Positions 1,420-61,678 of a stretch of DNA of 64,000 nucleotides are shown here, in pieces. Below the pieces are notes generated by a model. The model made no database searches. It was not told the origin of the DNA and was given only the letters and a program-made list of their open reading frames with translations. The first letter of the stretch is position 1. Every line of letters begins with the position of its first letter. Position numbers and translations under genes: made by a program. Source of the DNA: Escherichia phage vB_EcoM-ZQ1; the sequence record MW650886.1; one strand, given 5' to 3'.

Positions 1420-2985
1420 ATGAACAAGATTGACGAAAAGATCCTGAAGCATTTGAAGGAAGGCAAAAGCCAGAGCGCAATTGCTACTCTGTTGGGCATA
1501 CCCCGCTCGACTGTACAACGTGTTTCCGACAAGGAAATCGGTGTTGACCCTACTTCGCTGAAATCTCTGACAACAGATCAGATCGCCAATATCCAAAGGG
1601 ATTCGGCGGCAGGTAATGTCAGCAATGCATTCTTGGCCAAGGTGTACGGTGTGTCCGCCAAGACCATTGCTCGCGCTCTGTTGGTCCGCATTACCGAGGA
1701 GGAAAACAAGGTAACTGTGATCTCTCCTATCAAGCCGGAAGAGCAGGAAGTATTCGAGGTCCAACCGGGCGGCACGGCCAAAGACAAAGATGGCACAGAA
1801 TGGTATGTTGGGGCATATCTGCCGAACCACAACAAGTATCTGTGTCTCACTAACGACGACAATTTCAAAGGGGCTTTCTTTGAAAAGTCTGAATTGACTC
1901 CTGTGGAAGGTGATAGTCGTGCTTTCGATGTTGAAGATATCGGCAAGATGGCAGAAATTTCTGTGGCGCTGTCAGAAGGTGCGGACAAAGTCCCGGGCAA
2001 CGTTGAAATCAGCGTTGTGGTTGACGGGGAAACCTATCCTATCCGTGGATCCTTGGATGCCCGTCGCCGTGTTGGTTACTTTGATGGCATCCTCGGTCGC
2101 ACCCTGCGCCTGGCTCTGTCTTCTGTAGAATTCGCCGTCGCTGTCAAAGACGTTGAAGAAGTGGCTGATGATAAGAAGACCAAGCAGGACTTCGGCGCGA
2201 AAGACCTGGACGTGTTCCTGAACGAACACCAGATCCTGATTCTTCCTGACAGCGTTGTTATCGCGATTGACGGCAAGCCGGAAACGATCACCACTTCACA
2301 CCCGGCCTATGACCGCATCGTACAGGCGATCAAAGACAAAGACGTGAAACTGGCATACTCGCTGATGCGCCCCCGTGAAGCCATCGCGAAGTACGCTGCT
2401 GGTCTAGTAGACGTGTCTGACAACCGTGTCCGCTGGTCCGGTCATGACATCACAGGCACATCCATCGCCAAGCGTGTACTGGCGCTGATGCTGAAGGGTG
2501 ACTTCCACAACCTGGACCGCATGGCGAAGTTTATGGACAAAATGTTCCAGAACCCGTCAGCTTCTCTGGTTCAGTCTGGGCGCATCTATGAGTTCATGGC
2601 GTACTCTGACATCGAAATTGACGACGACGGTGACATCATCCTCTACAAATCGGTGCGCGGCAACTACATGGACAAGCACAGCAACACGATCAGCAACGCC
2701 CCAGGCACTATCGTGCGGATGGCTCGCTCATTCGTGAACGACAACAACTCTGAACTGTGTTCATACGGTTTGCACGTTTGCTCCCTGGCCTATCTGAAAC
2801 AGTGCTTCGGTTCTGTTGGCCAGCGTGTCGTTCGCTGTAAGCTGAACCCGCGTGACATCGTGTCGGTCACCGATGATTTTGGTTCAAGCAAAATCCGCTG
2901 CTGTGAATACCTGGTGTTGGATGACTACACCGCTGAGTACAACCGCCAGCACAAGTCTATTGACGTGACAGGTCTGTACAAGTAA
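1420..2985 (+). CDS. hypothetical protein with N-terminal helix-turn-helix-like segment
   Basis: ATG at 1420 follows the stop of the upstream gene (1386-1388); N-terminus ...SQSAIATLLGIPRSTVQRV... resembles an HTH; rest unassigned. Confidence 0.5.
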   Translation: MNKIDEKILKHLKEGKSQSAIATLLGIPRSTVQRVSDKEIGVDPTSLKSLTTDQIANIQRDSAAGNVSNAFLAKVYGVSAKTIARALLVRITEEENKVTVISPIKPEEQEVFEVQPGGTAKDKDGTEWYVGAYLPNHNKYLCLTNDDNFKGAFFEKSELTPVEGDSRAFDVEDIGKMAEISVALSEGADKVPGNVEISVVVDGETYPIRGSLDARRRVGYFDGILGRTLRLALSSVEFAVAVKDVEEVADDKKTKQDFGAKDLDVFLNEHQILILPDSVVIAIDGKPETITTSHPAYDRIVQAIKDKDVKLAYSLMRPREAIAKYAAGLVDVSDNRVRWSGHDITGTSIAKRVLALMLKGDFHNLDRMAKFMDKMFQNPSASLVQSGRIYEFMAYSDIEIDDDGDIILYKSVRGNYMDKHSNTISNAPGTIVRMARSFVNDNNSELCSYGLHVCSLAYLKQCFGSVGQRVVRCKLNPRDIVSVTDDFGSSKIRCCEYLVLDDYTAEYNRQHKSIDVTGLYK

Positions 2986-3002
2986 CCAAACCCCATCCAC
3001 CA

Positions 3003-3027
3003 AGGAGGCTTCGGCCTCCTTTCAGTT
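3003..3027 (+). terminator. GC-stem hairpin with UUCG tetraloop (aggaggc-TTCG-gcctcct) followed by a short T-rich tract
   Basis: 7-bp perfect stem read directly, 18 nt after the stop at 2985; U-tract is weak. Confidence 0.5.
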
Positions 3028-3209
3028 CGAAGGCGAGACCAGGGAATACTCCCACAAGAACTTTCCTCCCCGTGATGTTCATGACCAACAGTTCGTGAAA
3101 TTGTTCTGTCGCTGTGGTGGTTGCGACTTCACAGACGAAGGATACGCGATGCACGTATACTGCTGCAATTGCTGTGGTAAATACGTAACAGTCTATAGGA
3201 GAACCAAAC

Positions 3210-3635
3210 ATGGCGAAGAAACCTGAAGTCAAGAAAGTTGAAATTAAAACCGAAGCCCCAGTCGATGACATCCAGGCGAAGGAGGAAGGTGTGTTGCCTA
3301 CCTACCTACAACGCGCCATCGATAACATCCCTCCAGGGGGAGACGGAGGCGTCGTCTACGCTGGCGGGTACGGTTGGGTGTGCGAATACCAAGACGGCAC
3401 GAAGGAACTCCTCCAGGAGCTTCCAGGGCTGGCTGCGACCCTCAAGCGTTATGGTCGCGACAAGTTCGGCAAGCCGTTTGAAACCGGGGCTGTGATTGAA
3501 ACCAACATCACAGTCGAGACTCTGAACCTGCTGGGTGAAGATGATCTCAAGTTGTTGGCTGCGCCGCTGGGTATCACAGAAGAAGATCGCATTCAGCTGA
3601 TTGCGAAGCTGATCGAAAAATTGCAGATTAAATAA
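3210..3635 (+). CDS. hypothetical protein
   Basis: 141-aa ORF; AGGAGA Shine-Dalgarno about 8 nt upstream of the ATG. Confidence 0.5.
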   Translation: MAKKPEVKKVEIKTEAPVDDIQAKEEGVLPTYLQRAIDNIPPGGDGGVVYAGGYGWVCEYQDGTKELLQELPGLAATLKRYGRDKFGKPFETGAVIETNITVETLNLLGEDDLKLLAAPLGITEEDRIQLIAKLIEKLQIK

Positions 3636-5110: not shown

Positions 5111-5133
5111 AAAAGAGGCTCCGGCCTCTTTTT
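5111..5133 (+). terminator. rho-independent terminator (agaggc-TCCG-gcctct then TTTT)
   Basis: perfect 6-bp GC stem, tetraloop and T-run about 30 nt after the stop at 5082; a TATAAT hexamer follows at 5152-5157. Confidence 0.6.
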
Positions 5134-23459: not shown

Positions 23460-24890
23460 TCACCCATTACCCTTCTCCAACAGGAATGCGATGTTTTCAA
23501 TGTACGCTTTCTGTATCGCATAGACTTCATCCAGTGTGTTGGCCACTTTCTTGTCAATGCGGACTTCTACAAGGCGAGGTAGGAACAAAGACTTCATCGC
23601 ATCATCTGTCTTATCCTGTACGCCATTGGAGAGCACTGCGGCGATTTTGCCAATGTAGTCGCCCTGGTTCTCCCACATATGGCGTCTCAGCTCATCTGAG
23701 ATCCCTGATACGCCAACAACAAGCAGGCTGTCGGAAGTTTTACAAATCAGTGAGCCAAAAGTCTTGGCGTGTTTGCCTTTCTTGTCGGCCTCGTTGAATC
23801 CCACGATTTCAAGGTCACACTCAACCTCCATCTTCAGCTTCAGACCTTCAGAAGAAGTACCATCTTCCCACGGCATGTCTGCGGCCTTACATATCGTGCC
23901 TTCTTCTTTGCGAGCCAGCGCGTCTTTGAAGTGGTCGACGGCTTCGGCAAATGAGTGAACAACACGAGTTTCTTGAACCTGAACCAGACCGTCGTCTTCA
24001 TCAAACAGTTGCTGGATGATATCGAAGCGGCGCTCATACGGGGTATCCACGCGTTGGGCGTTGAACCATTGTTCATACGGCACAACATCCCACACCCGGT
24101 AGATCACCCGATAACGATCTTCTAGGGGTTCTCCTGTCTGAATCACGCTGTTGAGTTTACCGTTACCGACAGCACGAGGCAGGATGGTATTCGACTTGAG
24201 GTCAACAACGAGAAGTTCACCATGGAACACACTCTCACCAATCCCCGTATCGTAGATCAGGTCTTTGAACACCAGTGAAAGGTTATCAACAGAACCACCT
24301 GCGATAAGGGAACCGGAGCGAGAGCGAATCTCAGGCTCTTTATTGTACCGACATATGATGTTGGCGAACATACCGTCTGACTTCAGCTGGCTGTAGACGC
24401 CACGCTTGAAGTCCATCTTCTTCAGCAGGTCAATTGTCATGTTGTCATAACGATGATACGGAAGAATGTTGATCAGGCGTCCAGTGCCTCCGGCGGCGTT
24501 GAATGCAGCGTTGATACCCTTCTCAGCGATACCCGCCTTGATATCACGGTCTAGGATCATCTGAATGAGTTCGTGGTATTGGGGATCCATCTTCAGGGCG
24601 ACAGAGGCCAACAGGGCATCAGCCTTTTGGCCACTGACAAGGCGCTGTGCCATCTGGTCGAGGACGTCATAGACTTCGCTGATGTCATCAGTCTTCTCAC
24701 GGACGAGCATGCGAGGGTACGCGCTGAGCTTCAACTCAGTCCGATAGAACGACGTCATTGGGTCATAGACATACTGCAGGAAGTCTGCCAAGTCTGGGTT
24801 GTTCTTGAATGCTTCGGTCAGCACGGCTTTCTTCGCATTGCTGCCTTTGGTTTCGCGAAGTCGGTGGACTGTTTCAAGGATAGGGATCAT
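23460..24890 (-). CDS. ATP-dependent DNA ligase (T4 gp30-like)
   Basis: 476 aa; nucleotidyltransferase motif I LKSDGMF (K-x-D-G); size matches T4 DNA ligase. Confidence 0.8.
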   Translation of the reverse strand: MIPILETVHRLRETKGSNAKKAVLTEAFKNNPDLADFLQYVYDPMTSFYRTELKLSAYPRMLVREKTDDISEVYDVLDQMAQRLVSGQKADALLASVALKMDPQYHELIQMILDRDIKAGIAEKGINAAFNAAGGTGRLINILPYHRYDNMTIDLLKKMDFKRGVYSQLKSDGMFANIICRYNKEPEIRSRSGSLIAGGSVDNLSLVFKDLIYDTGIGESVFHGELLVVDLKSNTILPRAVGNGKLNSVIQTGEPLEDRYRVIYRVWDVVPYEQWFNAQRVDTPYERRFDIIQQLFDEDDGLVQVQETRVVHSFAEAVDHFKDALARKEEGTICKAADMPWEDGTSSEGLKLKMEVECDLEIVGFNEADKKGKHAKTFGSLICKTSDSLLVVGVSGISDELRRHMWENQGDYIGKIAAVLSNGVQDKTDDAMKSLFLPRLVEVRIDKKVANTLDEVYAIQKAYIENIAFLLEKGNG

Positions 24891-24902
24891 GTGGTGTCTC
24901 CA

Positions 24903-24935
24903 GGGTTATATGTGCTGCTATTATAACCCTGGGGA
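24903..24935. repeat. 33-bp near-perfect palindrome (ccagggttata-N11-tataaccctgg) upstream of the ligase start
   Basis: 11-bp inverted arms read directly; no adjacent U-tract on either strand. Confidence 0.6.
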
Positions 24936-34665: not shown

Positions 34666-35336
34666 CAGATACTCCCAAAATCACGACAGAGGAATGCCAT
34701 CACAGCCTGGTCTACTGTTAGGCCGTGAGACTTCATCATACCCGCAGCCACCGTAGGGAACAAGTCTTTATGTCGTTGACGATGGTCATGAACTCTCTCC
34801 CACTTCTCGACCACCAGACTTTCATTGAAGTCCACACCGCCGTTACGTGATTTAACACGAGCGATACACGTTTCAAGAGGAGTGTCCATAAAGAGCACAA
34901 CCAATTCACGTGGTGGGCGTGTCAGACGGGGGATCCAAGAACTCAATAATGTGGATGGAATGATACCTTCGAAAATCACATCATATTTCAAGTATTCTGG
35001 TTGGTCAGCAATAGACAACGCGAACAACATCTGCTCAGTGTCCTTCAGGGAATCAACCCCCTTGGACTTCGACTTGTCATATTTACCGATACAGACCACG
35101 TTGAACGAAGGACAGACAGTCAGCATGACCTTGCCGTTATGGGTCACGACATACGCCTGAGGATCCCTCTCCGCCAGCTGAGACGGCACAGTGGATTTAC
35201 CGCTACCATTGGAGCCTTTGACGTAGTAGATTTGCCCTCGTGCTGGGTAGATCCCCTTTACGACGGGTGGTTTAAAGAATGTGTGGACGGGGCGCTTCAT
35301 CAGCCCCTTCAGGGAGTAGGACATAAACTGCTCCAA
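34665..35336 (-). CDS. P-loop kinase of unassigned specificity
   Basis: Walker A YYVKGSNGSGKST; coupled by 1-nt overlap to the ThyA-family gene. Confidence 0.55.
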   Translation of the reverse strand: MEQFMSYSLKGLMKRPVHTFFKPPVVKGIYPARGQIYYVKGSNGSGKSTVPSQLAERDPQAYVVTHNGKVMLTVCPSFNVVCIGKYDKSKSKGVDSLKDTEQMLFALSIADQPEYLKYDVIFEGIIPSTLLSSWIPRLTRPPRELVVLFMDTPLETCIARVKSRNGGVDFNESLVVEKWERVHDHRQRHKDLFPTVAAGMMKSHGLTVDQAVMAFLCRDFGSI

Positions 35337-35340
35337 TAAA

Positions 35341-35365
35341 CAAAAGGAGCTGCTATTATAGCAGC
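35341..35365 (-). terminator. rho-independent terminator on the minus strand (gctgcta-TAA-tagcagc then TCCTTTT)
   Basis: hairpin read directly, downstream of the stop at 35400. Confidence 0.5.
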
Positions 35366-35399
35366 CCCTTCATCTATTGAACAGTTTCTGAACTTAAAT

Positions 35400-53929: not shown

Positions 53930-54136
53930 TTAGTTCGGGCGAAATCTTACAAACTCGCGAGCCAATTCGGCTTGCTCATCACTGATGGGAACCCCATGGA
54001 AGTCCGCCTGACCATTCTTCCAGCCGTGGATGAAACTCGGAGATTCTTCCCCAGATAAGACATACCCCTCACGAGATTTCAAGTACCCCCGCACGATCTC
54101 TCCGTCGTCCAGTTTGTTCAGTTCTTCTAACGTCAT
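53930..54136 (-). CDS. hypothetical protein
   Basis: 68-aa ORF, ATGA-coupled to primase. Confidence 0.35.
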   Translation of the reverse strand: MTLEELNKLDDGEIVRGYLKSREGYVLSGEESPSFIHGWKNGQADFHGVPISDEQAELAREFVRFRPN

Positions 54137-55191
54137 CGCACTTTCCTCAGTTCAGCGAATTGTAATGATGCGGCCATACCTTGGTAAACGTTCTTGGCGA
54201 TCAGCTTCAGGAGGTCTTGTATGGACATGTTGCCCTTTGATGGCATGACCATGTCGTTGATATCCTTCCAAGGAACGTCTGGTGGGAACAGTACAACCTT
54301 GACACCTTTATCTATCATCTTCTGAATACCGTCACACACCTGCGGGTTCCGGTACTGATTATCAGGGATATAAATGTCACCCTTCACGCTCAGTAGATCA
54401 GCGTCGGCCGATGCAAGACAGTTGGGTAGGAACAGGCTGTCAATCGGACCTTCCACAACCAGCTTGGTCTTGTGAATGTTCACCCGGTCTTCACCATACA
54501 CCTTAGTGTCTTCATCCTTGGGCTTGACTGTTGCGTAGCGTAGTGCCGCATTCTTGTCGAATGCACGCCCCTGAACGATCTTCATGCGACCATCCTGAGT
54601 CCAGAACGGAATCACCAGCCGCTCGTCATCGGGGATCTTCAGCTGCTTCTCAGGGTTCGTTTCGAACTGGAGTAGATCCTGGCGGAAGTGTTGTGTGTAA
54701 TACAGGAGGGACAAAGTGCTCTCCGGCAGTCCACGCCACTGTACGTACTGTCGAGCCTTATGGTCAGGCGGTAGCAGATCAAGCCGTAGCATATTGCCGA
54801 GGAGGCTCTCGTCGCGTTTCGCCGCCACTGAGCCAATACGGGCGGTCTGTGTCAGCTTTGGCAGCGGCTTCAGGGAAGGAAGTGGTCTGCCCGACGTATC
54901 ACCCAGCAGACGGAACTTCTCCATGTTGTACTCTGTTGAGAGGCGTTCGTCGAACTTCTTCAGCCAGAACTCAAATGACCAGCCATTCATGTTATGGCAA
55001 TTGTGACATTTAAACCGGAAGCAGTCATTATCTCGATCGAAGAAAAAATAACCTCGTCGCTTATTAGCACTTTTGAGAGAATCTCCACACAGGGGACAAC
55101 GGAAGTTTGCGACAGCACCAACGCGCTCCCACTTGAATTTATCGAGTCTGGGAGCAACGTAATTTATGAATTGTTCATCAAGAAATTTCAT
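54133..55191 (-). CDS. DNA primase (T4 gp61-like)
   Basis: N-terminal zinc ribbon FRCPLCGDS ... FKCHNCHN matching the T4 gp61 pattern, then a Toprim-like region. Confidence 0.8.
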   Translation of the reverse strand: MKFLDEQFINYVAPRLDKFKWERVGAVANFRCPLCGDSLKSANKRRGYFFFDRDNDCFRFKCHNCHNMNGWSFEFWLKKFDERLSTEYNMEKFRLLGDTSGRPLPSLKPLPKLTQTARIGSVAAKRDESLLGNMLRLDLLPPDHKARQYVQWRGLPESTLSLLYYTQHFRQDLLQFETNPEKQLKIPDDERLVIPFWTQDGRMKIVQGRAFDKNAALRYATVKPKDEDTKVYGEDRVNIHKTKLVVEGPIDSLFLPNCLASADADLLSVKGDIYIPDNQYRNPQVCDGIQKMIDKGVKVVLFPPDVPWKDINDMVMPSKGNMSIQDLLKLIAKNVYQGMAASLQFAELRKVR

Positions 55192-55367
55192 TAGATCTTC
55201 TGCCTCTGGAACACTTCGGTCACAGTATAGTCTACATCACGACTTTGAGCTATACACAGTGCTCGACAAGCCCTCTATACAAAATATTTGTTTACCAGCC
55301 GTGTTGTGTTCGAAGTGGGCGAAGCTGTCCAAGAGATTCATGTAGCTGCGCATGTGACGGGGTAAAG

Positions 55368-55411
55368 ATTTTGCTCATTGTCCTTTCCTTTCGGTGGATA
55401 ATGAGCAAAAT
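55368..55411. repeat. perfect 12-bp inverted repeat (attttgctcatt / aatgagcaaaat) with 20-nt spacer
   Basis: read directly in the 244-bp intergenic region upstream of the primase gene. Confidence 0.6.
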
Positions 55412-55435
55412 TATATGCCTTTATTTTGTATTGAC

Positions 55436-55787
55436 TTACGACAGCTGCTTCAGTTTGTAGATCGTCTGATAGCACAGCGTCTTGATTTCATCAAGTGTGT
55501 TCTGAAGGTGGGAGTCACACTGCTTGTAGATGCCATCTACGTCTATCACCACACTGTTAATATAGGAGATAGGGTCTGGGTTGTACAATTTGATATTCTC
55601 GAATGATGGAACATACTGGCCACCCGCACCGATGTATGCTTCGGTAAACGTGTCCAGCAAGTCCTCTAGATCCCCGTAGAACTCCCCGAGTGCCTTGTGC
55701 TTGGCATAGGACGTTGTAACGAAGTGTAAGGCATGAGAGTGGGCTATAGCAAGCAGTCCACGGTTGATGAAAATACTCGCATTGACC
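55436..55787 (-). CDS. hypothetical protein (possible four-helix ferritin/Dps-like fold; weak)
   Basis: ATG at 55787 with GAGGA RBS; ORF-track start at 55843 lies inside a terminator hairpin. Confidence 0.4.
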
Positions 55788-55799
55788 ATGATGTTGTCC

Positions 55800-55832
55800 T
55801 CAGAAAAAGAAATCCCCCTGTATTTAAGGGGG
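55800..55832 (-). terminator. rho-independent terminator on the minus strand (atccccc-loop-gggggat then TTCTTTTTCT)
   Basis: read directly, downstream of the stop at 55875. Confidence 0.55.
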
Positions 55833-55874
55833 ATTGTAATCACTGCTTGACAAGAACCATCTTGATGGTTTCAC

Positions 55875-56180
55875 TTAGTCTTTGTCGGCAGACTTGCCAA
55901 AGAAGAATTCGAAACCGTCATGGACAGCAACGACTTCCTGACCTTGGGAGATACCGTGAGTCTGGTCTGGGGTCAGCTTCACCTTGATGGTGTTGCCATC
56001 GGTTAACTCCAGGTTGTAGACATCCGCCTGATTGTCAGGAGTGATCTGGGTCACGGTAGCGCCGGAACACCACTGAGTGCCATCAGCTTGTTTGGTGATG
56101 GATACGGTCTTACCCTGGACACCAGCATGGGTCTGAGGTTTAGCGGCTTGTTCTTTAAAATATTCGATAAACGGTTTCAT
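55875..56180 (-). CDS. late-promoter-driven small protein (virion component candidate)
   Basis: 101 aa; exact TATAAATA about 24 nt upstream, GGAG RBS, own terminator downstream. Confidence 0.45.
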   Translation of the reverse strand: MKPFIEYFKEQAAKPQTHAGVQGKTVSITKQADGTQWCSGATVTQITPDNQADVYNLELTDGNTIKVKLTPDQTHGISQGQEVVAVHDGFEFFFGKSADKD

Positions 56181-56204
56181 CTTAATCTCCTCGGGGATTT
56201 AAGT

Positions 56205-56212
56205 TATTTATA
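56205..56212 (-). promoter_or_regulatory. T4 late-promoter box TATAAATA (minus strand)
   Basis: exact match on the reverse complement, immediately after the upstream terminator hairpin. Confidence 0.5.
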
Positions 56213-56229
56213 AGCCCCCGAAGGGGCTT
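56212..56229 (-). terminator. hairpin terminator after the 1096-aa gene (agcccc-TTCG-ggggct on the minus transcript)
   Basis: stem and UUCG loop read directly 8 nt after the stop at 56237; weak U-tract. Confidence 0.45.
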
Positions 56230-56236
56230 TTGATGA

Positions 56237-59200
56237 TCAGATCTTAATCTGCATGTTGCCACCCAGGGACTGCTCGTACTCGCTGTATGCGCCTTCCCCG
56301 TAGTCTCGTGCCCACTGGTCAGACTGCTGGGCGCTATCCAGAGTCATCAGGTTTGGTTCAGTCGGGTTGTAACCCTTGGACTTCGCATCCCGGTACAGAG
56401 TCTGCAGGTACTGGTTGGCGCGGTCAATCTGAGCTTTGAACTCGCGATATGCCCCTTCAGTTGTGTTGCGGCGGAAGGTGATATCCCAGTCCACGTTCAG
56501 AGTCTGACCATCACGGCTTGCATAGATCTGCCAATCCAGGTCGCGGCCTTTTGGTGCGTTGTCGCGGATGGAGTCGGCGTATGCCGCAAGGTCGTCCTTC
56601 GGATTGTGCGACGTGCTTTTCAGAAGTAGTGCATGACCCATACCACCGTTTGGCTCAAGAGACCATTTTCCTGTTTCTCTTCCCAGGCGTTCTATGTTGT
56701 TGAGTTGGTTTATCGACAATTCAGAAGAGTCAAATAATACCACATCACGTTTTTTGGGGGTTCTCACATAAGGGGTGAGATCAATGTCGATCATCCGGTT
56801 TATAAATTCTACCACTTCAGCTTGTTTCTTTGGCAATGTGGTATTGATATCCGGCTTGTTTGCCACTTTCTCTAGGCGTTTATTTTCTGCGCTTATCATG
56901 GACAGCATAATTTGTGTAACTTTGCCGTCAGACAAGTTGTAATCATTCCAAATCACTTCACCTTTATCCGTGATGGTTATATCGTTCAAGAACACCTGGT
57001 TTGGGTTGTATGACTGACTTTTCAACTGTTGGAGGTTTCTGGAAAGATATACCATTTTTGATGAAATCTCATCAATCACACTCTGGACCATATCTTTGTT
57101 TAAAGGAAGTTCATATGTCTTCGGATTGTTCAGGGTACGCCCTTTCTGAGAGACAATTGGGGTGAATGCAACTTTACCTTTGTCGTAGTAATAGGTCACG
57201 TTGGTTATCATAGAAGTACCGGCGTATTTTCCCGTTTCGGGGAAATTGACATCCCACCGAATGGACATGCCGTTGACAGTCTCACCAAACACCATGGCGT
57301 TGCTTGGTATCTTCAGGGTTCCAGAGTTGACCAGATCAGCGCCTTGGGCATTCAGGTCGATAGAACCATAGATAGCCCCGGTAATACGATCTTTCAACAT
57401 CAGGGTCTTGTCGCCCTTCTCTGGGATGATTTCCAGCGGGTGCTTGCCACGCGGAGGTTCTTTGATGAGTTCCAGTAGAGCAGTTTTCCCTGGTTTCACA
57501 CGATTCAGGACAGCGTCGGACACTGTCAGAGTCCAGTTTGCGGTTTCCACATAACCCCAGCCCCGAGAACGGCGAATGGCTTTGATAGGATATGGAGCGC
57601 TTGTTGGCACTGCGCTAATTTCCCATTTGCCAGTGTACTGGGTCTTGGCAACCTCAAAGATGGACGCAATTACTGCATTGGCGACGTCACGGGCGCTACC
57701 TTTGGCCACGTTCTCCTCTTCAGCAATTTCGCTGAAAACTGAGTATTGAACGAAACCAGCGAGGACGTTTGTGAAGTTGACAACGATAACCAACCCGCCT
57801 GCTGTCGTGTAACGACCAGCGCCCACACGACGGATGTTTTCACCAGGAAGAATAGAAGTGTCCAACCCAACGTTGGTATCAATGATACCCAGAACACGAG
57901 CGATGAAACCACTGTCACGTAATTGATCAACACTGGTTGCACCCTCGGTCGAATCCGATGCGGATTTAGACACTTTGTTCAACTTGATAGAGACAAGGGT
58001 TTCCCCGTTGACACCGATGATATCCCATTCAGTACCCTGCTCGTTCGAGGTGCGGGCAATCTTGCGCTTTGAATTGATGGCACCTTCGTAACGCCCGTTC
58101 TTGACCACAACAGAGGCAGTAGCAGCATCAGTCGCACTTGCTGCATTTGAAAAGTCTGGGTCAGAAATACTGATGTCGACGTCACCGTTTTGAGAACGCA
58201 TGCGAACACCGTTTTTGAATCGTTCAACGTTTACTTCTCGAGCACCAAGTCGTTTGGCATCAATAACAGCAGTTCCAGAACCGATAATGTTGGCTGGGTT
58301 ATTTCTGTCTGAACTGTTTTGAGAACCTTTCCAAAATTTTGTAGACGCCATGGTGAAATCATTCAGGATATTGATAGGGACTTGCGGTAATTTCAACTGA
58401 CGAGCAATGAAATCAGCACTTTGCCCACGCACAGGTTTCTCATTCATGTATGCGCCAACATACACGCCCGGCTCATTGTAGTGGGGAGCGATATTTGCCG
58501 TGTTCGTGCGGCCTCTCTCCTTACCAGCCCATAACAACATGGGCTGATCCCCGTTTGAAGTTAATTTCCATCCGTTGCCATTGCTGGTGTCATTGCTGGT
58601 GTCATTGCTGGTGTCAACGTCCACCACCAGAATTATCTGAGCACCTTTCTTGAAAGTGTACTGATCGTACATACCTTTCTTCTGTTTGGTCATGGACGCA
58701 CCGACCAAGTCTTGGTTGGTGAAGCCGCGCTTCATATTCCAAGATACCTCAGTCCCGTCTGGATATTTGTCAAAATCATAACCATAGAATGTGGCTACTT
58801 CTTTCGAACCGCTTATCAGACGGACGTAATTTCCACGAATCGGGTCTCGCCCGCTCTTCAACTCCAGACCAGTGTCCGAGCTGTTGTACCACTCGCGGTT
58901 GACTTCTATTTCAGAAGAACCAGCCCCAACTCCCACATCCGGAGTATTGTTCTGAACCGGAACGTCACCGACTTTGTCTGGATCATCCCAGGTGATACCC
59001 TGCATCTTCGGACCGTCGAATACCTGAGCCGGATCTTTACCCTTACGAACTAGCCACACATAACCACGGTCAGGAACAGGCGCGTAGGTCAGGTCCATGA
59101 CGTTCAGTTTCTGCTTCAGGCCGGACTGGCGGATGATCTTAGGAATCAGGGTCATACCGCGATCCAGCGCTTTCTTAGAGAAGTTGACAGCAAAGCCATC

Positions 59201-61393: not shown

Positions 61394-61678
61394 TCATTCG
61401 TAGATGAGGTGGTAGGATTCCTCGATACACTCCAGCCAGCCATAGACGAACTGTAGAGGGTCATCCCATGCCGTCTTGGTCGCGACGGTAAAGTTGCCGT
61501 CCAGGATCTGCATATCTTGGTACTTGTTGAAAGCGAGTACAGCATCAACCACAATCAGGCCGCCCTGCTCAAGATAACGATTCGGAGTGACGGCCACTTG
61601 GTAACGAGGATTCCTGTGATTCCATATCTCCACAGCAATGTCACAGGAATCCTGAATTTCATCTTTGGTTTCTGACAT
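61394..61678 (-). CDS. hypothetical protein
   Basis: 94-aa ORF. Confidence 0.4.
   Translation of the reverse strand: MSETKDEIQDSCDIAVEIWNHRNPRYQVAVTPNRYLEQGGLIVVDAVLAFNKYQDMQILDGNFTVATKTAWDDPLQFVYGWLECIEESYHLIYE

What the first reader, a model, noticed from the sequence alone, without database searches (positions are those of the whole stretch)
55368..55411. Perfect 12-bp inverted repeat in the primase upstream region
attttgctcatt and its exact reverse complement are separated by 20 nt in the 244-bp intergenic region preceding the gp61-like primase gene. The geometry suits a dimeric DNA-binding protein operator or a long RNA hairpin in the primase leader.
Basis: seen in the sequence. Interest (0 to 1): 0.4.

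Follow-up and report, generated by a model that had tools for sequence, protein, structure and literature searches.

The report
Start-codon hairpin left beside a dead gene
The inverted repeat is real and conserved, but it is most likely an ordinary T4-style RNA hairpin that hides the start codon of a small nuclease-like gene, a gene this phage has since lost to a deletion, not a repressor binding site for the primase gene.

Summary
The repeat is confirmed: 12-nt perfect arms at 55368-55379 and 55400-55411, 20 nt apart, extending to 16-nt arms with one mismatch.

The window is an Ackermannviridae (Aglimvirinae) phage, and all local genes are on the minus strand. The "244-bp intergenic region" is the remnant of a 203-aa PD-(D/E)XK-like gene that lost about 424 nt.

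On the coding strand the repeat lies in the 57-nt gap between the DUF5856 gene's stop codon and that dead gene's ATG:
- **3' arm:** start codon plus the next eight bases (codons 2-4).
- **Loop:** the Shine-Dalgarno sequence.
- **5' arm:** overlaps a TATAAT box that has a GTCAAT box 14 nt upstream.

Relatives keep the pairing:
- Kuttervirus has a compensatory U-A to C-G change.
- Where another gene is inserted at this junction, an unrelated sequence forms the same kind of hairpin over that gene's ATG. It has its own compensatory change and a coding-strand G.U variant.

Best reading (0.6): read-through mRNA folds and blocks translation, while transcripts from the embedded promoter lack the 5' arm. 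This is the logic known for T4 genes e, soc, 49 and I-TevI. An operator or a terminator is unlikely. It is a new member of a known kind, vestigial in this phage, and of modest interest.

The parts
55400..55411 (-). 5' arm of the RNA hairpin (AUUUUGCUCAUU on the coding strand). It is non-coding, and its first two bases are the last two of the TATAAT box.
   Evidence: conserved in relatives
55368..55379 (-). 3' arm of the RNA hairpin (AAUGAGCAAAAU). It contains the start codon and the next eight bases (codons 2-4, Met-Ser-Lys-Ile) of the dead 203-aa gene.
   Evidence: The Kuttervirus arm is AAUGGGCAAAAU, with a matching change in the 5' arm.
55380..55399 (-). 20-nt spacer/loop (AUCCACCGAAAGGAAAGGAC). 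A short inner helix (UCC/GGA, CC/GG) pairs the two GG motifs.
   Evidence: predicted structure
55386..55390 (-). Probable Shine-Dalgarno sequence AAGGA, 7 nt upstream of the ATG and inside the hairpin loop.
   Evidence: read from the sequence
55376..55378 (-). ATG of the remnant gene, paired within the main stem.
   Evidence: It aligns with the annotated start of Ag3 orf00103 and LIMEstone1 ORF077.
55410..55415 (-). -10-like box TATAAT. It is invariant across three clades while the flanking spacer diverges.
55430..55435 (-). -30-like box GTCAAT, 14 nt upstream of TATAAT and directly after the DUF5856 stop codon. It belongs to a motif enriched in the window.
   Evidence: 15 hits against 1.8 expected; TC.ATA is invariant in alignment A2
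55192..55378 (-). Pseudogene remnant of the 203-aa PD-(D/E)XK-like gene. A 28-codon ORF (55295-55378, stop at 55292-55294) is followed by frameshifted 3' fragments that end at the primase ATG.
   Evidence: protein family
55352..55361 (.). Junction of the 424-425-nt deletion, lying between imperfect direct repeats (TTAYCCCGNCACAT / TTACCCGGCATAT in intact relatives).
   Evidence: the same junction is present in PC3, A221 and LHE287
55436..55789 (-). Upstream gene (DUF5856; MobD.6 / rI.-1-like; called 'starvation-inducible regulator' in some annotations). No terminator is predicted between it and the hairpin.
   Evidence: its LIMEstone1 homologue ORF078 is a confirmed virion protein with a putative late promoter
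54133..55191 (-). gp61-like DNA primase gene. In intact relatives its ATG overlaps the stop codon of the 203-aa gene (TAATG).

Best explanation
The inverted repeat encodes an RNA stem-loop on the minus (coding) strand. The stem-loop occludes the translation-initiation region of the first gene downstream of the DUF5856 gene.

**Proposed mechanism**
- On transcripts that read through from upstream, the 5' arm pairs with the start codon and the next eight bases. Short inner helices pair the GG motifs of the ribosome-binding site. The structure is predicted at about -20 kcal/mol, so initiation would be blocked.
- A promoter-like pair of boxes (GTCAAT-N14-TATAAT) sits directly after the upstream stop codon, and its -10 box overlaps the start of the 5' arm.
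- Transcripts initiated there (predicted +1 near 55402/55403) lack most of the 5' arm and leave the start site open.
- This is the arrangement established for T4 genes e, soc, 49, I-TevI and segB, and for mobE of phage Aeh1.

**Status in this phage**
- The regulated gene is a 203-aa PD-(D/E)XK-like protein. It has been destroyed by a 424-nt deletion plus later frameshifts.
- The hairpin is therefore a well-preserved relic. It now lies at the head of a roughly 210-nt leader in front of primase.

**Shown:** the repeat; its position over the ATG; its conservation with compensatory changes; the deletion; and the enrichment of the promoter-like motif.

**Inferred:** that the RNA folds in vivo; that it blocks translation; that the boxes are an active promoter; and which temporal class of transcript is open or closed.
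For: **Anatomy**
- The arms, the ATG at 55376-55378 within the 3' arm, and the AAGGA in the loop are read directly from the sequence.
- The read-through RNA folds at -20.4 kcal/mol, z = -3.4 to -3.9, with 0 of 200 shuffles as stable.
- RNA starting at 55403 folds at only -6.8 kcal/mol, z = +0.1.

**Conservation**
- In 13 distinct sequences from Aglimvirinae, Kuttervirus and Taipeivirus, 96% of cells are paired, against 39-47% when the partner columns are slid.
- There is one compensatory pair, U-A to C-G, and its 3' side is a Ser-to-Gly codon change.
- RNAalifold recovers the same helix independently.

**A second, unrelated hairpin at the same junction**
- Taipeivirus and Agtrevirus EspM4VN carry an extra gene inserted after DUF5856.
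- There, CAUAGCGUGAGU / ACUCACGCUAUG pairs over that gene's ATG. EspM4VN has a compensatory A-U to G-C change, and FKP14 has a G-C to G.U change on the coding strand.
- In those genomes the nuclease-like gene has no hairpin and overlaps the upstream stop codon.
- The hairpin therefore tracks the junction, not the particular gene.

**Promoter**
- TTCAAT-N12-16-TATAAT (at most one mismatch) occurs 15 times against 1.8 +/- 1.3 in shuffles. Twelve of the hits are on the coding strand, with the -10 box usually 28-37 nt before an ATG; this site is at 31 nt.
- Both boxes are the only conserved islands upstream of the stem.
- One hit coincides with a 'putative middle promoter' annotated in LIMEstone1.

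**Same layout elsewhere in the window**
- RuvC-like gene hairpin at 41993-42037, with TAAATA in the 5' arm. This is annotated as a putative late promoter in LIMEstone1, shows a compensatory G/C indel, and is conserved in Klebsiella phage May.
- DNA-ligase gene hairpin at 24900-24932, with TATAAT at the 5' arm and the 3' arm over GGAG.

**Precedent**
- T4 reviews PMC2988022 and PMC3014915.
Against: - No transcript ends, RNA structure or translation data exist for any Ackermannviridae phage in the library searched.
- Only one compensatory event supports each hairpin family. The sequences form a few tight clades, so the covariation is thin.
- The 3' arm is coding and the 5' arm overlaps the putative promoter, so each arm has its own reason to be conserved.
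- The Shine-Dalgarno sequence lies in the loop and the stem is A/U-rich, so ribosomes might still load.
- In this window the coding-strand stem has an A.C mismatch that is a G.U pair on the opposite strand, and the + strand fold is more stable (-32 kcal/mol).
- The -30 box here has one mismatch, and the spacer of the motif class (12-16 nt) is unusual for sigma-70.
- The gene it would regulate is dead here, so no current function is required.
Confidence: 0.6

Rival explanations
1. The hairpin is an RNA processing or stability element. It would mark or protect the 3' end of the DUF5856 message, or serve as an RNase III/E site separating the late structural message from the replication-gene message. 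It would not control translation.
For: - It lies directly downstream of the DUF5856 stop codon in every lineage, whatever gene follows.
- The stem plus inner helices approach 17 bp.
- It is retained intact in four phages in which the downstream gene is dead.
Against: - The 3' arm always covers the next gene's ATG, in two unrelated sequence families. A purely 3'-end element has no need for that.
- The stem is shorter than typical RNase III substrates.
- No cleavage data exist.
Confidence: 0.12
2. The repeat is a DNA operator. A dimeric phage or host protein would bind the two 12-bp half-sites, one of which overlaps the -10/+1 region of the promoter, and repress transcription of the nuclease-primase unit.
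For: - The symmetry is perfect over 12 bp.
- The left half-site overlaps the TATAAT box and the predicted start site. That is a classic operator position, and it is how I-TevI autorepresses (PMC2988022).
Against: - It is a single site; there are no further copies in 64 kb beyond chance.
- Centre-to-centre spacing changes from 32 bp (Aglimvirinae) to 36 bp (Kuttervirus), about 38 bp (Taipeivirus) and about 49-50 bp (family B). This is incompatible with a fixed dimer geometry.
- The arms are swapped for an unrelated sequence while complementarity is kept.
- G.U-type variants break the DNA symmetry.
Confidence: 0.1
3. The repeat is an intrinsic transcription terminator or attenuator between the DUF5856 gene and the replication genes.
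For: - It is a hairpin in a short gap between genes of probably different temporal class.
- Other hairpins in this genome combine a terminator with a -10 box in the loop, for example at 35360.
Against: - The stem is A/U-rich and is followed by CUUUACCCC rather than a U-tract.
- It was not called by the terminator scan, nor by the LIMEstone1 authors, who annotated 31 terminators.
- The sequence after the stem is coding.
Confidence: 0.05
4. The repeat is a chance palindrome or a by-product of the deletion, with no function in any lineage.
For: - 13% of shuffled windows contain at least one repeat this good.
- The region is a decaying pseudogene.
Against: - Both arms lie on the same side of the deletion junction, and the repeat is present in intact relatives.
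- Pairing is kept through a compensatory change across subfamilies.
- An independent analogue exists at the same junction.
Confidence: 0.03

Closest known systems
T4 translational hairpins with an embedded promoter: genes e (lysozyme), soc, 49 (endonuclease VII), I-TevI/II/III and segB, plus mobE of phage Aeh1 (reviews PMC3014915 and PMC2988022)
   Same: - A stable stem-loop on long read-through transcripts occludes the ribosome-binding region.
[quoted passage not shown]
- Targets are often nucleases. Here the target is a PD-(D/E)XK-like protein, and the same layout precedes a RuvC-like resolvase, the functional analogue of T4 gene 49.
   Different: - Here the start codon, not the Shine-Dalgarno sequence, is in the main stem.
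- The embedded box is TATAAT with a -30 box, not the T4 late TATAAATA. The open transcript class may therefore be early or middle rather than late.
- Nothing has been tested experimentally.
- The regulated gene is deleted in this phage.
T4 middle promoters (MotA box at -30 plus a TAnnnT -10)
   Same: Bipartite layout with an upstream box nearer than a sigma-70 -35. The core TTCA resembles the 3' half of the MotA box TGCTT(t/c)A. The LIMEstone1 authors annotated one such site as a putative middle promoter.
   Different: ViI-like phages have no recognisable MotA or AsiA (PMC3184105). Spacing is 12-16 nt from TTCAAT to TATAAT. Activity is unproven.
Intrinsic (rho-independent) terminators
   Same: A stem-loop in a short gap between co-oriented genes.
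   Different: The stem is not G+C-rich, there is no U-tract, and the 3' arm is the start of a coding sequence.

Membership tests
T4-type TIR-occluding hairpin with embedded promoter | A stable RNA stem-loop that base-pairs the Shine-Dalgarno sequence and/or the start codon | tested here: met
   The AUG and the next eight bases lie in a 12-bp stem, and the GG motifs lie in inner helices. The fold is -20.4 kcal/mol, z = -3.4 to -3.9. This is a prediction only.
T4-type TIR-occluding hairpin with embedded promoter | Pairing maintained in evolution (compensatory changes) | tested here: met
   U-A to C-G between Aglimvirinae and Kuttervirus/Taipeivirus, with 96% of cells paired against 39-47% in slid controls. 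Family B has A-U to G-C and one G.U variant. There are few independent events.
T4-type TIR-occluding hairpin with embedded promoter | A promoter inside or next to the DNA encoding the 5' arm, so that its transcripts lack that arm | tested here: inconclusive
   GTCAAT-N14-TATAAT overlaps the start of the 5' arm. The motif class is enriched, 15 hits against 1.8 expected, and conserved. No transcription start site is mapped.
T4-type TIR-occluding hairpin with embedded promoter | Read-through transcription from an upstream unit reaches the hairpin | tested here: inconclusive
   No terminator-like site is predicted between the DUF5856 gene and the hairpin. No RNA data exist.
T4-type TIR-occluding hairpin with embedded promoter | Translation is reduced on the long transcript and restored on the short one | not testable with these tools
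   Needs reporter fusions or toeprinting.
Dimeric-repressor operator | Half-sites at a fixed spacing, recognised by sequence | tested here: not met
   Spacing varies from 32 to about 50 bp centre-to-centre. The arms are replaced by an unrelated sequence with complementarity kept. The site is unique in the window.
Dimeric-repressor operator | Specific protein binding | not testable with these tools
   Needs EMSA or footprinting.
Intrinsic terminator | G+C-rich stem followed by a U-tract | tested here: not met
   Not reported by the scan. The tail is CUUUACCCC.
Any Rfam family | Match to a curated covariance model | tested here: not met
   No hit at E <= 1 in 54000-57000.

The most novel reading that the evidence does not exclude
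The hairpin may be one instance of a genome-wide design in ViI-like (Ackermannviridae) phages. In this reading, a previously unrecognised promoter class (TTCAAT-N~14-TATAAT, used without MotA or AsiA) is systematically nested in hairpins. Each promoter's own transcripts would escape a structure that terminates, or translationally silences, read-through from the preceding unit. That would supply the early/middle promoter signals that Kutter et al. (2011) could not find for this family.
Probability: 0.3. Interest if true: 0.55.

Novelty: new member of a known kind. Interest (0 to 1): 0.3.

Why it matters
- **For this window:** it corrects the annotation. The primase "upstream region" is a dead nuclease-like gene that still carries its initiation signals.
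- **For the phage family:** it suggests that Ackermannviridae use the T4 trick of placing a promoter inside a start-site hairpin. This appears in front of at least three DNA-metabolism genes: the PD-(D/E)XK-like gene, the RuvC-like resolvase gene and the DNA ligase gene.
- **For promoter discovery:** it points to a candidate promoter motif in a family whose early and middle promoters were reported as unidentified. These phages are widely used for biocontrol, so knowing their transcription units has practical value.
- **Limits:** none of this is surprising in principle, and all of it rests on sequence inference.

Tried and rejected
- **Rfam:** a scan of 54-57 kb at E <= 1 found nothing.
- **Terminator scan:** the hairpin was not called.
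- **Other copies of the arm:** a search with up to 2 mismatches gave only chance-level matches.
- **IMG/VR pattern scan** (TATAAT..GCNCAT..ATGNGCAA), looking for uncompensated variants: it returned mostly unrelated chance matches. Every Ackermannviridae hit was already known, so it added nothing.
- **Sliding-window folding energies:** a poor discriminator, because the stem is A/U-rich.
- **Hairpin embedding of TATAAT boxes, intergenic against coding:** only marginal (p = 0.05, small sample, one misclassified site).
- **Replication-origin idea:** no composition or skew signal near 55.4 kb.
- **Literature:** no Ackermannviridae transcriptome, TSS map or description of the TTCAAT-TATAAT motif was found.
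- **The 203-aa protein:** no Pfam hit and no PDB sequence hit. The nuclease-like assignment rests on the invariant PD...ExK motif and a structure-model match to 3dnx.

Full report
**1. The observation.** ATTTTGCTCATT lies at 55368-55379 and its exact reverse complement at 55400-55411, 20 nt apart. The repeat finder extends the arms to 16 nt with one mismatch and a 12-nt gap. Dinucleotide shuffles of the window contain on average 0.14 perfect inverted repeats of at least 12 nt with a 3-40 nt loop, and 13% of shuffles have at least one. The real window has three. The repeat is therefore real, but on statistics alone it is only moderately improbable. The case for function comes from comparison with relatives.

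**2. Where it sits.** The window is 97% identical to Escherichia phages PC3, PH4 and A221 (Ackermannviridae, Aglimvirinae). All genes around it are on the minus strand:
- a DUF5856 gene (55436-55789; also called MobD.6 or rI.-1-like);
- the 244-bp gap;
- the gp61-like primase gene (54133-55191).

The gap is not intergenic. As a query it matches, in two pieces spread over about 668 bp, the two ends of a 612-nt gene present in Ag3 (orf00103), LIMEstone1 (ORF077) and many other relatives. This phage, together with PC3, PH4, A221 and LHE287, carries the same 424-425-nt internal deletion between imperfect direct repeats, with the junction at about 55352-55361. Further small indels follow, so the remnant reads in three different frames.

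The intact protein has no Pfam hit and no PDB sequence match. It does have an invariant PD43...E57-x-K59 motif. A confident model (pLDDT 85) matches PDB 3dnx best (E = 3.5e-4), followed by weak, non-significant matches (E >= 0.1) to NucS, BamHI and Can2-type nuclease domains. It is therefore probably a PD-(D/E)XK-fold protein, though nuclease activity is untested.

**3. Anatomy on the coding strand.** Reading 5' to 3' on the minus strand:
- DUF5856 stop codon TAA (55438-55436);
- GTCAAT (55435-55430);
- a 14-nt spacer;
- TATAAT (55415-55410);
- the 5' arm AUUUUGCUCAUU (55411-55400);
- a 20-nt spacer holding AAGGAAAGGA;
- the 3' arm AAUGAGCAAAAU (55379-55368), which holds the ATG (55378-55376) and the next eight bases (codons 2-4) of the dead gene.

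The true intergenic gap is thus 57 nt, and the hairpin spans the whole translation-initiation region. The read-through RNA is predicted to fold at -20.4 kcal/mol (z = -3.4 to -3.9; 0 of 200 shuffles as stable), with inner helices pairing both GG motifs.

**4. Comparative evidence.**
- *Homologous hairpin (family A).* In Aglimvirinae the 12-nt arms are invariant apart from a T-run length change. Kuttervirus and one Taipeivirus type have GCCCAU / AUGGGC where Aglimvirinae have GCUCAU / AUGAGC. This is a compensatory U-A to C-G change whose 3' side alters codon 2 from Ser to Gly. Over 13 distinct sequences, 96% of cells are paired, against 39-47% when partner columns are slid. RNAalifold finds the same helix on its own.
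- *Analogous hairpin (family B).* Other Taipeivirus genomes and the Agtrevirus EspM4VN carry an extra gene (phrog_30076) inserted directly after DUF5856. There an unrelated sequence, CAUAGCGUGAGU / ACUCACGCUAUG, forms a 12-bp stem ending in that gene's ATG. EspM4VN shows a compensatory A-U to G-C change, and FKP14 a G-C to G.U change on the coding strand.
- *What the hairpin follows.* In those genomes the nuclease-like gene has no hairpin and simply overlaps the preceding stop codon. The hairpin therefore tracks the junction after DUF5856, meaning the first gene of the next unit, rather than any particular gene.
- *Limits.* This is good evidence for selection on base-pairing. It rests on few independent events, and the sequences fall into a few tight clades.

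**5. The embedded promoter.** The only conserved islands between the stop codon and the stem are TC.ATA and TATAAT. Across the window, TTCAAT-N12-16-TATAAT (at most one mismatch in total) occurs 15 times, against 1.8 +/- 1.3 (maximum 5) in shuffles. Twelve hits are on the coding strand, usually with the -10 box 28-37 nt before an SD+ATG; the site beside the repeat has 31 nt. One hit is the site that the LIMEstone1 authors annotated as a putative middle promoter.

Family B has GTCTAT/TTCTAT-N15-TATCAT, with the 5' arm inside the spacer and the -10 box in the loop. A transcript starting about 7 nt after TATAAT (55403) keeps only four bases of the 5' arm. It folds at -6.8 kcal/mol, no better than shuffles.

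No transcription start site has been mapped in this phage family. Kutter et al. report that ViI-like phages have gp55, gp33 and gp45 but no MotA or AsiA, and that their early and middle promoters could not be identified (PMC3184105).

**6. Most likely mechanism.** Read-through transcripts from the DUF5856 unit fold and hide the start site. The LIMEstone1 homologue of DUF5856 is a virion protein preceded by a putative late promoter. Transcripts from the embedded promoter cannot fold and are translated. This is the mechanism documented for T4 e, soc, 49, I-TevI/II/III and segB, and for Aeh1 mobE (PMC3014915, PMC2988022).

Two further hairpins in this window have the same layout:
- Before the RuvC-like resolvase gene (41993-42037). 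TAAATA in its 5' arm is annotated as a putative late promoter in LIMEstone1. There is a compensatory G/C indel between the window and LIMEstone1, and the hairpin is conserved in Klebsiella phage May.
- Before the DNA ligase gene (24900-24932). TATAAT lies at the 5'-arm/loop boundary, and the 3' arm lies over GGAG.

Which temporal class is open and which is closed cannot be decided from sequence. In this phage the regulated gene is dead. The element is therefore best seen as a relic that still heads the likely primase transcript. The deletion also removed the stop/start overlap (TAATG) that links the 203-aa gene to primase in intact relatives.

**7. Rival explanations.**
- *Operator.* This is disfavoured. 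The site is unique, the arm spacing varies from 32 to about 50 bp, the arms are replaced by an unrelated sequence with complementarity retained, and some variants are G.U pairs. Because the left arm overlaps the putative -10/+1 region, it cannot be excluded without binding assays.
- *Terminator.* This is disfavoured by the A/U-rich stem, the absence of a U-tract, and the negative scan.
- *RNA processing or stability.* This remains possible, but it does not explain why the 3' arm always covers the ATG.
- *Chance.* This is contradicted by the comparative data.
- *Strand.* In this window the + strand fold is stronger (-32 kcal/mol) because the coding-strand A.C mismatch becomes a G.U pair. Against that, relatives and family B show the wobble pairs on the coding strand, and there is no + strand gene here.

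**8. Verdict.** This is a new, untested member of a well-known kind of phage translational control. Its interest is modest, and lies mainly in the by-products: a candidate promoter motif, and a recurrent promoter-in-hairpin design in Ackermannviridae.

Noticed in passing
window 55192-55378 (junction about 55352-55361): A 203-aa PD-(D/E)XK-like gene (Ag3 orf00103 / LIMEstone1 ORF077; phrog_631) is reduced to a frameshifted remnant by a 424-425-nt deletion between imperfect direct repeats. PC3, PH4, A221 and LHE287 share the deletion. LHE287 has a further 2-nt deletion.
   Followed up: yes
window 41993-42037 (minus strand): A 14-bp perfect hairpin sits directly in front of the ATG of a RuvC-like resolvase gene (41402-41992). 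TAAATA in its 5' arm is annotated as a putative late promoter in LIMEstone1. The window and LIMEstone1 differ by a compensatory G/C indel. The hairpin is conserved in Klebsiella phage May. The layout matches T4 gene 49.
   Followed up: partly
window 24900-24932 (minus strand): An 11-bp perfect hairpin lies in front of the ATP-dependent DNA ligase gene (23460-24890). TATAAT sits at the 5'-arm/loop boundary, and the 3' arm overlaps the GGAG ribosome-binding site.
   Followed up: partly
window; -30 boxes on the minus strand at 55435, 53828, 50872, 41545, 40373, 35381, 29147, 28376, 26601, 23069, 15830 and 7014; on the plus strand at 5132, 14235 and 41869: The bipartite promoter-like motif TTCAAT-N12-16-TATAAT is strongly enriched: 15 hits against 1.8 expected. 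Most hits lie on the coding strand about 30 nt before gene starts. The -10 box often sits in a hairpin loop or arm, for example in the terminator at 35326-35385. This is a possible early/middle promoter class for ViI-like phages, which lack MotA and AsiA.
   Followed up: partly
window 61607-61653: A 13-bp perfect inverted repeat (AGGATTCCTGTGA, 21-nt loop) lies inside coding sequence, about 25 nt downstream of the ATG of a 94-aa ORF (61394-61678). That ORF overlaps the end of the preceding gene. The purpose of the repeat is unknown.
   Followed up: no
window 55811-55835 (minus strand): A terminator-like hairpin, AATCCCCCTTAAATACAGGGGGATT followed by TCTTTTT, lies between the 101-aa ORF and the DUF5856 gene. 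The TAAATA in its loop is annotated as a putative late promoter in LIMEstone1. This is another promoter nested in a hairpin.
   Followed up: no
L002 (LIMEstone1) 2590-3246; L007 (FKP14) 1809-2585; L034 344-1000; L006/L007 707-1201; L033 2111-2620: The DUF5856-to-primase interval is an indel hotspot. Several relatives have HNH-type homing endonuclease genes inserted between the 203-aa gene and primase. Taipeivirus and EspM4VN have an extra 165-169-aa gene (phrog_30076) inserted after DUF5856.
   Followed up: partly
L001 (PC3) 1534-2595; L038 (A221): The GenBank annotations of PC3 and A221 shorten the primase gene to 858 nt. In PC3 they also call a 201-nt ORF on the opposite strand across the true primase start. 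These are probably annotation artefacts around the pseudogene.
   Followed up: no
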